Below are positions 48,486 through 48,940 of a stretch of DNA of 64,000 nt, piece by piece. The stretch is taken from contig OZ024742.1 in NCBI GenBank assembly GCA_964016885.1, forward strand, positions 18,910,001 through 18,974,000. Direction: 5' to 3'. The position numbers and the translations under genes are program-made. Source of the DNA: Eledone cirrhosa (taxonomy: Eukaryota). The notes under the pieces are model-generated. The model saw only the letters and a program-made list of their open reading frames with translations. It was not told the origin of the DNA and ran no database searches. How positions within the stretch are numbered: position 1 is the first letter of the stretch; the number at the start of each line of letters is the position of its first letter.

Positions 48486-48940
48486 ATACAAAAGTGAGTT
48501 AGAAGCGAAACGAAATTTAATTTCGTTTCGTTATTTGTTTTTATCGTTTCCGCTGAACCGGTGCGTACAATGACTCACGTTCTATGCAAATTGGTCTACC
48601 CACTACTAATTTTCATGGAAAAAGCATATAACGATATGTGCTTTTACAATTCTCCAGAGAATCCGGAAGATTGGTAAATATTGCTGATGAGATGTAATAA
48701 CATCGAAACTAGTCCAATATTCCTGTCTGGCCCTCTGGGGAATAGAGGAAATGTGTTTCCTTGAAAACTCGTATGACTCTAAAACCCGGTCCGTCTGTGT
48801 GGTTACATACAGACTAGCTGACACTCACTGTAAAGTGTCTAGTGAAAAACTCAGTACATGTACATATGTATACATGTGTGTATTTATATGCATACTAATA
48901 CTTCCGTATACATATGTAGATGTACACTTTAACTTAATTG
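48486..48940 (+). mobile_element. Diverged solo monomer of the 465-bp unit with an intact hammerhead (48677-48721)
   Basis: Colinear with the array unit but with many substitutions; the hammerhead differs only in loop II (AATA vs AACA); (TA)n on both sides. Confidence 0.9.

What the first reader, a model, noticed from the sequence alone, without database searches (positions are those of the whole stretch)
48486..48940. Solo diverged monomer shows the 465-bp unit is mobile and its ribozyme is conserved
Seen: an almost exactly unit-length copy 44 kb away ends at the same point as the array (TTAACTTAATTG then TA repeats). It has many substitutions in the body but only a loop change in the 45-nt hammerhead. 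Inference: a defined 3' priming site on (TA)n and purifying selection on self-cleavage, so the unit is not a passive satellite.
Basis: partly seen in the sequence, partly recalled or inferred. Interest (0 to 1): 0.78.

Follow-up and report, generated by a model that had tools for sequence, protein, structure and literature searches.

The report
Hammerhead retrozyme leaving Penelope-type insertion footprints
The lone 456-base copy is a young member of a genome-wide family of short non-coding repeats that carry a predicted self-cutting RNA and sit in TA repeats, mostly as two back-to-back arms with two fixed ends, the same footprint that this genome's Penelope-like retrotransposons leave, so these enzymes likely copy it from an RNA that is probably circular.

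Summary
In detail: 48486-48941 is an 88.7% copy of the 465-bp array unit, ends at the same point before (TA)n, and differs once (loop II) in the 45-nt hammerhead. It is not an old, decayed monomer, though. It is a 99% copy of a second subfamily (469 bp) with arrays across the genome. Its hammerhead is internal, so it is not a cut-to-cut monomer. The pair alone supports selection only weakly (p=0.037; any 45-nt window P=0.81). Families about 59% alike keep all 15 core bases, with compensatory stem changes. 3' ends pile up at two sites about 70 nt apart, not one (114 of 117). Insertions are mostly head-to-head two-arm arrays, one arm ending at each site (43 such, 0 E1+E1, 1 E2+E2), and both arms share one haplotype (28 of 31). 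Autonomous Penelope-like elements (RT plus GIY-YIG) in the genome follow the same two-end rule in (TA)n. Verdict: a new non-LTR retrozyme family, likely mobilised by a Penelope-like enzyme priming on both target strands. The partner element, expression, cleavage and circularity were not shown.

The parts
48486..48941 (+). Single-armed, 5'-truncated insertion of retrozyme subfamily B (unit positions 12-467 of 469)
48486..48489 (+). 5' junction: ATAC shared between element and the flanking TA/CA repeat (microhomology, inferred)
   Evidence: two other insertions also start at unit position 12-13
48506..48530 (+). Hairpin of the tail region, just upstream of the second 3' end site
   Evidence: sequence; circular fold of the B unit
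48544..48544 (+). E2: unit position 70, where the other arm of two-armed insertions ends (internal in this copy)
   Evidence: 50 ends exactly at 70, 8 at 66-69
48677..48721 (+). Type I hammerhead: stem I 48677-48683/48715-48721, core CTGATGA 48684-48690, stem II 48691-48704, GAAA 48705-48708, palindrome ACTAGT 48708-48713, predicted cleavage after C48714
48929..48941 (+). E1: 3' end TTAACTTAATTGT running into (TA)n
47157..48485 (.). (TA)n target microsatellite, left flank
48942..49380 (.). (TA)n target microsatellite, right flank
1..2219 (-). Subfamily A array, inverted arm; continues 3.1 kb beyond the window start and ends at E2 in (TA)n (5319 bp)
2220..2224 (.). Head-to-head junction of the two arms (5 extra bases)
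2225..4469 (+). Subfamily A array, direct arm, ends at E1 in (TA)n
25203..26059 (.). Two-armed insertion of distant family C (about 59% to A), hammerhead core at 25819 (+), flanked by (TA)n

Best explanation
This is a copy of a non-coding, hammerhead-bearing tandem element (a non-LTR retrozyme) that is dispersed through the genome in (TA)n with two fixed 3' ends, and it is likely copied in trans by a Penelope-like reverse transcriptase-endonuclease from an RNA that is probably circular. Shown: dispersal, subfamilies, two end sites about 70 nt apart, head-to-head arms with one end type each, shared arm haplotype, scattered 5' breaks, conserved and covarying hammerhead, and the same architecture in autonomous Penelope-like elements of this genome. 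Inferred: read-through transcripts of an array cleave at paired hammerheads (the palindromic ACUAGU would pair between two copies); the monomer is ligated into a circle; the enzyme, predicted elsewhere to be a dimer, nicks both strands of (TA)n; each nick primes reverse transcription at one of the two internal RNA sites; both copies run through the ribozyme site for up to many units; the two variable cDNA ends are joined head to head, often with a few bases of overlap. The solo is a case where only the E1 arm remains, joined at its 5' side through ATAC. Some long arrays later grew by local duplication.
For: 336 and 331 matches among about 40 scored candidates each for A and B (lower bounds). 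Hammerhead pattern count 11,344 vs 11 for the reversed control. Of 71 parsed A/B-type insertions, 49 are two-armed: 43 E1+E2, 0 E1+E1, 1 E2+E2 whose flanks are mirror images, 3 with one end elsewhere, 2 running off the fetched DNA. Position-ordered sample on C1: 11 E1+E2, no same-type pair, 2 with one other end, 1 open (counted by hand). Arms share a haplotype in 28 of 31 informative insertions vs 59 of 694 control pairs; 13 of 15 insertion-private markers lie in both arms. Neither arm is always a copy of the other: E1 arm longer in 16, E2 arm in 27; 8 E1 arms and 4 E2 arms hold 50 nt or more that the partner lacks. 5' breaks do not pile at the cleavage site (6 of 119 within positions 222-250). 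Autonomous RT+GIY-YIG elements end in (TA)n with one tailed and one untailed arm: 9 of 9 two-armed insertions of a young 900-aa family with both ends visible, 44-nt tail, and inverted pairs in six other families with tails of about 35-66 nt. Hammerhead: 15/15 core positions invariant vs 187/450 elsewhere (p=3e-6); 7 pairs with two-sided changes, 0/500 shuffles reach the covariation score; a related family swaps ACTAGT for ACATGT, keeping the palindrome (980 vs 58 control). Units fold strongly as circles (z -8 to -10). Literature: PMC7229834, PMC11167929, 10.1101/2021.04.23.441226, 10.64898/2026.07.22.740005.
Against: No autonomous element sharing sequence with the unit was found: none among 50 GIY-YIG loci, 50 variant-hammerhead loci or 80 loci of the young family. 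Expression, cleavage and circularity are untested. The 70-74 nt tail is longer than the 30-40 nt reported for Penelope-like elements. Three of 31 insertions have arms differing by one marker. One family C locus scored E1+E1 by a crude regex and was not resolved. Recurrent variants in non-adjacent units show DNA-level duplication also builds arrays. A shared haplotype proves one donor lineage, not one RNA molecule. Units for the deep alignment were cut out with a core-motif regex, which favours core conservation; only the window's family C copy was found through non-hammerhead similarity, and it keeps all 15 core bases. In PMC11167929 hammerhead cleavage was not needed for insertion in vitro and uncleaved RNA was the main substrate. 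Target-site duplications are unclear in TA repeats.
Confidence: 0.82

Rival explanations
1. Same Penelope-like enzyme and same two priming sites, but the template is a long uncleaved linear read-through of a donor array (or repeated template jumping), with no circle; the hammerhead serves another step.
For: PMC11167929 found uncleaved RNA to be the dominant substrate in vitro. Full-length 3.1-kb autonomous elements also form tandem copies here (L362/L363).
Against: All units of a young insertion share one haplotype over up to 18 units, and no ordered pattern of unit variants was seen repeated between the insertions listed (by eye). One arm holds about 30 hammerhead-bearing units. Retrozyme circles are documented in coral, mussel and axolotl (PMC7229834).
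Confidence: 0.25
2. The inverted arm arises by fold-back self-priming on one cDNA or an antisense template, as proposed for Penelope in PMC3846280, not by priming on both target strands.
For: Explains shared haplotypes; some junctions are short palindromes.
Against: Each arm type can hold sequence missing from the other and either can be longer. Both outer ends sit at fixed sites directly on (TA)n. The two 5' break points are mostly unrelated.
Confidence: 0.1
3. DNA-level mobile satellite (Helitron-like, MITE-like or extrachromosomal-circle reinsertion) carrying a hammerhead as a passenger.
For: Local duplications within arrays; within the close clade the hammerhead is no more conserved than the rest.
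Against: Fixed 3' ends with variable 5' truncation, the tail rule shared with RT+GIY-YIG elements, and RNA-level covariation.
Confidence: 0.05
4. The head-to-head arrays are long-read or assembly fold-back artefacts.
For: One E2+E2 case has mirror-image flanks (C2:116987812).
Against: An artefact would give identical ends and mirrored flanks; 43 cases have two different defined ends, and the pattern recurs in several unrelated element families.
Confidence: 0.02

Closest known systems
Animal non-LTR retrozymes (PMC7229834, passages read; bioRxiv 10.64898/2026.07.22.740005, parts 1-3 of 5 read)
   Same: Non-coding tandem units, each with a type I hammerhead, low GC, strong self-pairing, monomers to multimers, co-occurring with Penelope-like elements. 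Short helix III with palindromic loop as in axolotl HHR_Amex1.
   Different: Unit 465-469 nt, above the 170-400 nt in PMC7229834 but within the 51-972 bp of the preprint. Head-to-head two-arm insertions with a tail were not found described for retrozymes: 'inverted' occurs 0 times in PMC7229834 and is absent from the preprint parts read. No sequence-related pLTR found here, unlike 24 of 57 Xenopus families. RNA not examined.
Endonuclease-positive Penelope-like elements (10.1101/2021.04.23.441226 and PMC3846280, passages; PMC11167929, parts 1-2 of 4)
   Same: 5' truncation, tandem plus inverted head-to-head copies, tail on one end only, AT-rich or (TA)n targets, hammerhead, two internal RT start sites bounding the tail.
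   Different: No ORF; the whole element is a short repeated unit; tail about 70-74 nt instead of 30-40; arms of up to about 30 units.
Dimer-dependent type I hammerheads of newt satellite and Penelope-like elements (PMC4209133, passages)
   Same: 1-2 bp helix III capped by a palindrome, predicted active as a dimer.
   Different: Activity not tested here; unconstrained cofolding did not produce the dimeric fold.

Membership tests
Non-LTR retrozyme | Tandem non-coding unit of a few hundred bp with a type I hammerhead in every unit | tested here: met
Non-LTR retrozyme | Dispersed copies from monomers to multimers; no LTR/PBS/PPT layout | tested here: met
   (layout seen from insertion maps; PBS/PPT not searched separately)
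Non-LTR retrozyme | Highly self-paired predicted circular RNA | tested here: met
   z -8 to -10 against 40 shuffles each
Non-LTR retrozyme | Expressed as linear and circular RNA | tested here: inconclusive
   one search listed no RNA holder; no read data were obtained
Non-LTR retrozyme | Self-cleavage activity | not testable with these tools
   core and covariation only
Non-autonomous Penelope-like element | Inverted head-to-head copy with tail on one end, variable 5' truncation | tested here: met
Non-autonomous Penelope-like element | AT-rich / microsatellite target shared with autonomous elements of the genome | tested here: met
Non-autonomous Penelope-like element | Sequence similarity to the pLTR of an autonomous partner | tested here: inconclusive
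   none in the loci sampled; only 150 of 10,597 GIY-YIG candidates were scored and 50 fetched
Non-autonomous Penelope-like element | Target-site duplication of about 8-10 bp | tested here: inconclusive
   11-13 bp repeats at a few informative flanks (C4:271451000, C1:94294500, C1:80664045); most flanks are pure TA and no chance control was run
Autonomous Penelope-like element | ORF with RT and GIY-YIG | tested here: not met
   the insertions consist only of 465/469-bp units between TA flanks
Rfam hammerhead family | Score at or above gathering threshold | tested here: not met
   HH9 31.6 of 52 bits; none

The most novel reading that the evidence does not exclude
These insertions are a natural record of the Penelope-like reaction on a ribozyme-made RNA circle: one enzyme dimer on one circle primes from both nicked strands of (TA)n at two fixed sites 70 nt apart and rolls in both arms. 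That would explain the inverted repeats and the one-sided tail of all Penelope-like elements, and give direct footprint evidence that animal retrozymes are mobilised by them without needing sequence similarity to the partner.
Probability: 0.5. Interest if true: 0.72.

Novelty: new member of a known kind. Interest (0 to 1): 0.52.

Why it matters
How animal retrozymes move, and why Penelope-like elements form head-to-head inverted copies with a tail on one end, are both described as open in the papers read (PMC7229834, PMC3846280, 10.1101/2021.04.23.441226). This family is young and has over ten thousand hammerhead-motif copies. It gives a countable footprint (one end type per arm, one haplotype in both arms, read-through of the ribozyme) that ties retrozymes to the Penelope mechanism and argues against fold-back self-priming. 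Intact young Penelope-like ORFs in the same genome make a direct in vitro test possible.

Tried and rejected
Rfam at gathering score: nothing. Pfam accession recalled from memory was not in the library. Sequencing runs: no RNA holder listed; no reads were laid, so expression is open. Partner search: GIY-YIG loci, variant-hammerhead loci and the young 900-aa family gave no sequence link to the unit. The k-mer arm parser flipped strands inside a hairpin for subfamily A, so its arm tallies and its 5'-break count (66 ends, mostly B) were dropped; only its base-level end positions are used. The 'core' index list was mis-set and was redone. A regex missed most autonomous ends and was redone. Private changes in B units are not significantly depleted in the hammerhead (4 of 87, 8.4 expected, p=0.14). 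Folding the hammerhead region alone is unremarkable (z -0.09). Unconstrained cofolding did not give the dimeric hammerhead. Earlier scan notes: nothing. 'Solo = decayed old monomer' and 'solo = cleavage-to-cleavage monomer' were rejected. PMC13282606 (passages) has no occurrence of 'ribozyme'. No supplements were read; retrozyme lists in them could already hold this family.

Full report
Observation. The stretch 48486-48941 lies inside a long (TA)n tract and aligns to positions 12-463 of the 465-bp unit of the array at the window start at 88.7%. Both end at TTAACTTAATTG(TTT) followed by TA repeats. The 45-nt hammerhead (48677-48721) has a complete type I core, a 7-bp stem I, a 5-bp stem II and a helix III reduced to the palindrome ACTAGT; it differs from the array only in loop II. 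Rfam gives no hit at gathering score and a sub-threshold Hammerhead_HH9 match, E 5.1e-06.

What the solo is. Searching the genome with the array unit gave 336 matches among 39 scored candidates; searching with the solo gave 331 among 40, many at 98-99% identity and in arrays of 469-bp period. The solo therefore belongs to a second subfamily (B) and carries 5 substitutions against B's majority state, three of them also seen in other B insertions. It starts at unit position 12 through a 4-base overlap with the flank, and the predicted cleavage site is in its middle, so it is a 5'-truncated insertion and not a cut-to-cut monomer. A hammerhead pattern counts 11,344 genomic matches against 11 for the reversed control, and that pattern leaves out most of family C.

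3' ends. Loci were merged and parsed into 71 A/B-type insertions. These were picked by similarity, so they favour young copies with full units. Of 117 visible outer 3' ends, 114 fall at two sites: E1 (unit end, 461-465) and E2 (position 66-70 of the next unit); 109 of the 114 run into TA-like sequence (base-level ends). 49 insertions are two-armed and head to head: 43 have one E1 and one E2 end, none E1+E1, one E2+E2 with mirror-image flanks, three have one end elsewhere (one resolved to E1) and two run off the fetched DNA. The window's own array is such an insertion: a 5319-bp E2 arm and a 2245-bp E1 arm. A position-ordered sample from contig C1 gave 11 E1+E2, no same-type pair, two with one other end and one open (hand count). 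A crude scan of 43 family C loci gave six distinct E1+E2 insertions and one unresolved E1+E1. 5' break points are scattered, with 6 of 119 near the cleavage site, so copying runs through the ribozyme.

Arms. The two arms carry the same haplotype in 28 of 31 informative insertions (14 of 14 for A, 14 of 17 for B; 13 more had no marker), against 59 of 694 informative pairs of arms from different insertions; 13 of 15 private markers are in both arms. Either arm can be longer (16 vs 27), and 8 E1 arms and 4 E2 arms hold sequence that the partner lacks, which excludes a fixed-order fold-back. Some long arrays show variants recurring in non-adjacent units, so local duplication also occurs.

Selection on the ribozyme. 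The solo-versus-array pair gives 1 of 45 against 46 of 407 (p=0.037), but some 45-nt window this clean occurs in 81% of shuffles, and across eight close subfamily representatives the hammerhead is not special (p=0.41). Deeper comparison settles it. A third family in the window (25203-26059), found through non-hammerhead similarity, is about 59% identical to A yet keeps all 15 core and palindrome bases. Across A, B, two C units and E these 15 positions are invariant against 187 of 450 elsewhere (units were cut with a core regex, which biases this). In 13 hammerheads, 7 of 14 pairs change on both sides and no shuffle or slid control reaches the covariation score (the rows are related and several were found by motif). 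The cleavage base varies among C, T and A but is never G. A further relative, about 70% like clade C, has ACATGT in place of ACTAGT, preserving the palindrome that PMC4209133 links to dimeric activity (passages).

Who moves it. The genome is rich in RT plus GIY-YIG elements. A young family with intact 900-905 aa frames inserts in (TA)n and shows one tailed and one untailed arm in 9 of 9 two-armed insertions whose two ends were visible among 20 fetched stretches. Six other families show the same in their inverted pairs, with tails of about 35-66 nt. This matches the inverted copy and one-sided tail described for Penelope-like elements (10.1101/2021.04.23.441226, passages; PMC3846280, passages). 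PMC11167929 (parts 1-2 of 4) showed that such a protein cleaves and extends both strands of AT-rich DNA, starts at two internal RNA sites that bound the tail, and is predicted to be a dimer. No sampled autonomous family shares sequence with the unit, so the partner is unassigned.

Comparison and novelty. The element meets the sequence-testable criteria of animal non-LTR retrozymes (PMC7229834, passages), whose mobilisation by Penelope-like elements has been proposed from co-occurrence and pLTR similarity (10.64898/2026.07.22.740005, parts 1-3 of 5). Five literature searches returned no paper describing this family or the two-arm, two-end footprint for retrozymes; the library lacks most subscription journals and no supplements were read. 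I rate it a new member of a known kind with useful mechanistic evidence. Expression, cleavage, circularity and the single-molecule twin-priming step are inferred, not shown.

Noticed in passing
window 50040-50607 (-): An unrelated 310-bp tandem element with two type I hammerheads carrying an ACGCGT palindrome, in the same (TA)n tract 1.1 kb from the solo; copies in L036, L192 and L380. Likely another retrozyme family.
   Followed up: partly
window 25203-26059: Two-armed insertion of family C (about 430-bp unit, older; 4513 first-look candidates), same architecture with a shorter tail.
   Followed up: yes
window 31660 (+); also L150, L153: CTGATGA...GAAACTGTTC hammerhead-like motif in a short self-complementary element next to TA repeats.
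   Followed up: no
L141, L146, L152 (3' UTR of an RT+GIY-YIG family): Hammerhead-like fold with TTGAAAA in place of CTGANGA and an ACCGGT palindrome; 66-nt tail, the closest in length to the retrozyme's.
   Followed up: partly
L361-L380: Very young Penelope-like family with intact 900-905 aa frames, full tandem copies at 3127-bp period and inverted pairs.
   Followed up: partly
L287, L290, L295: Scattered, apparently ancient hammerhead-like relics with the ACTAGT palindrome and similar flanks, not in arrays.
   Followed up: no
G000:C1:58710-59272 (L204): One A-clade insertion sits in a (CAT)n/(GAT)n repeat instead of (TA)n.
   Followed up: no
window 60201-61893: 71-bp tandem repeat, about 24 copies, with a 212-bp higher-order period.
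   Followed up: no
window 49386-49620: Short inverted-repeat element between TA tracts, seen by eye.
   Followed up: no
window 5400-5560 and 6330-6520: Two copies of a dispersed SINE-like repeat, seen by eye; identification recalled, not tested.
   Followed up: no
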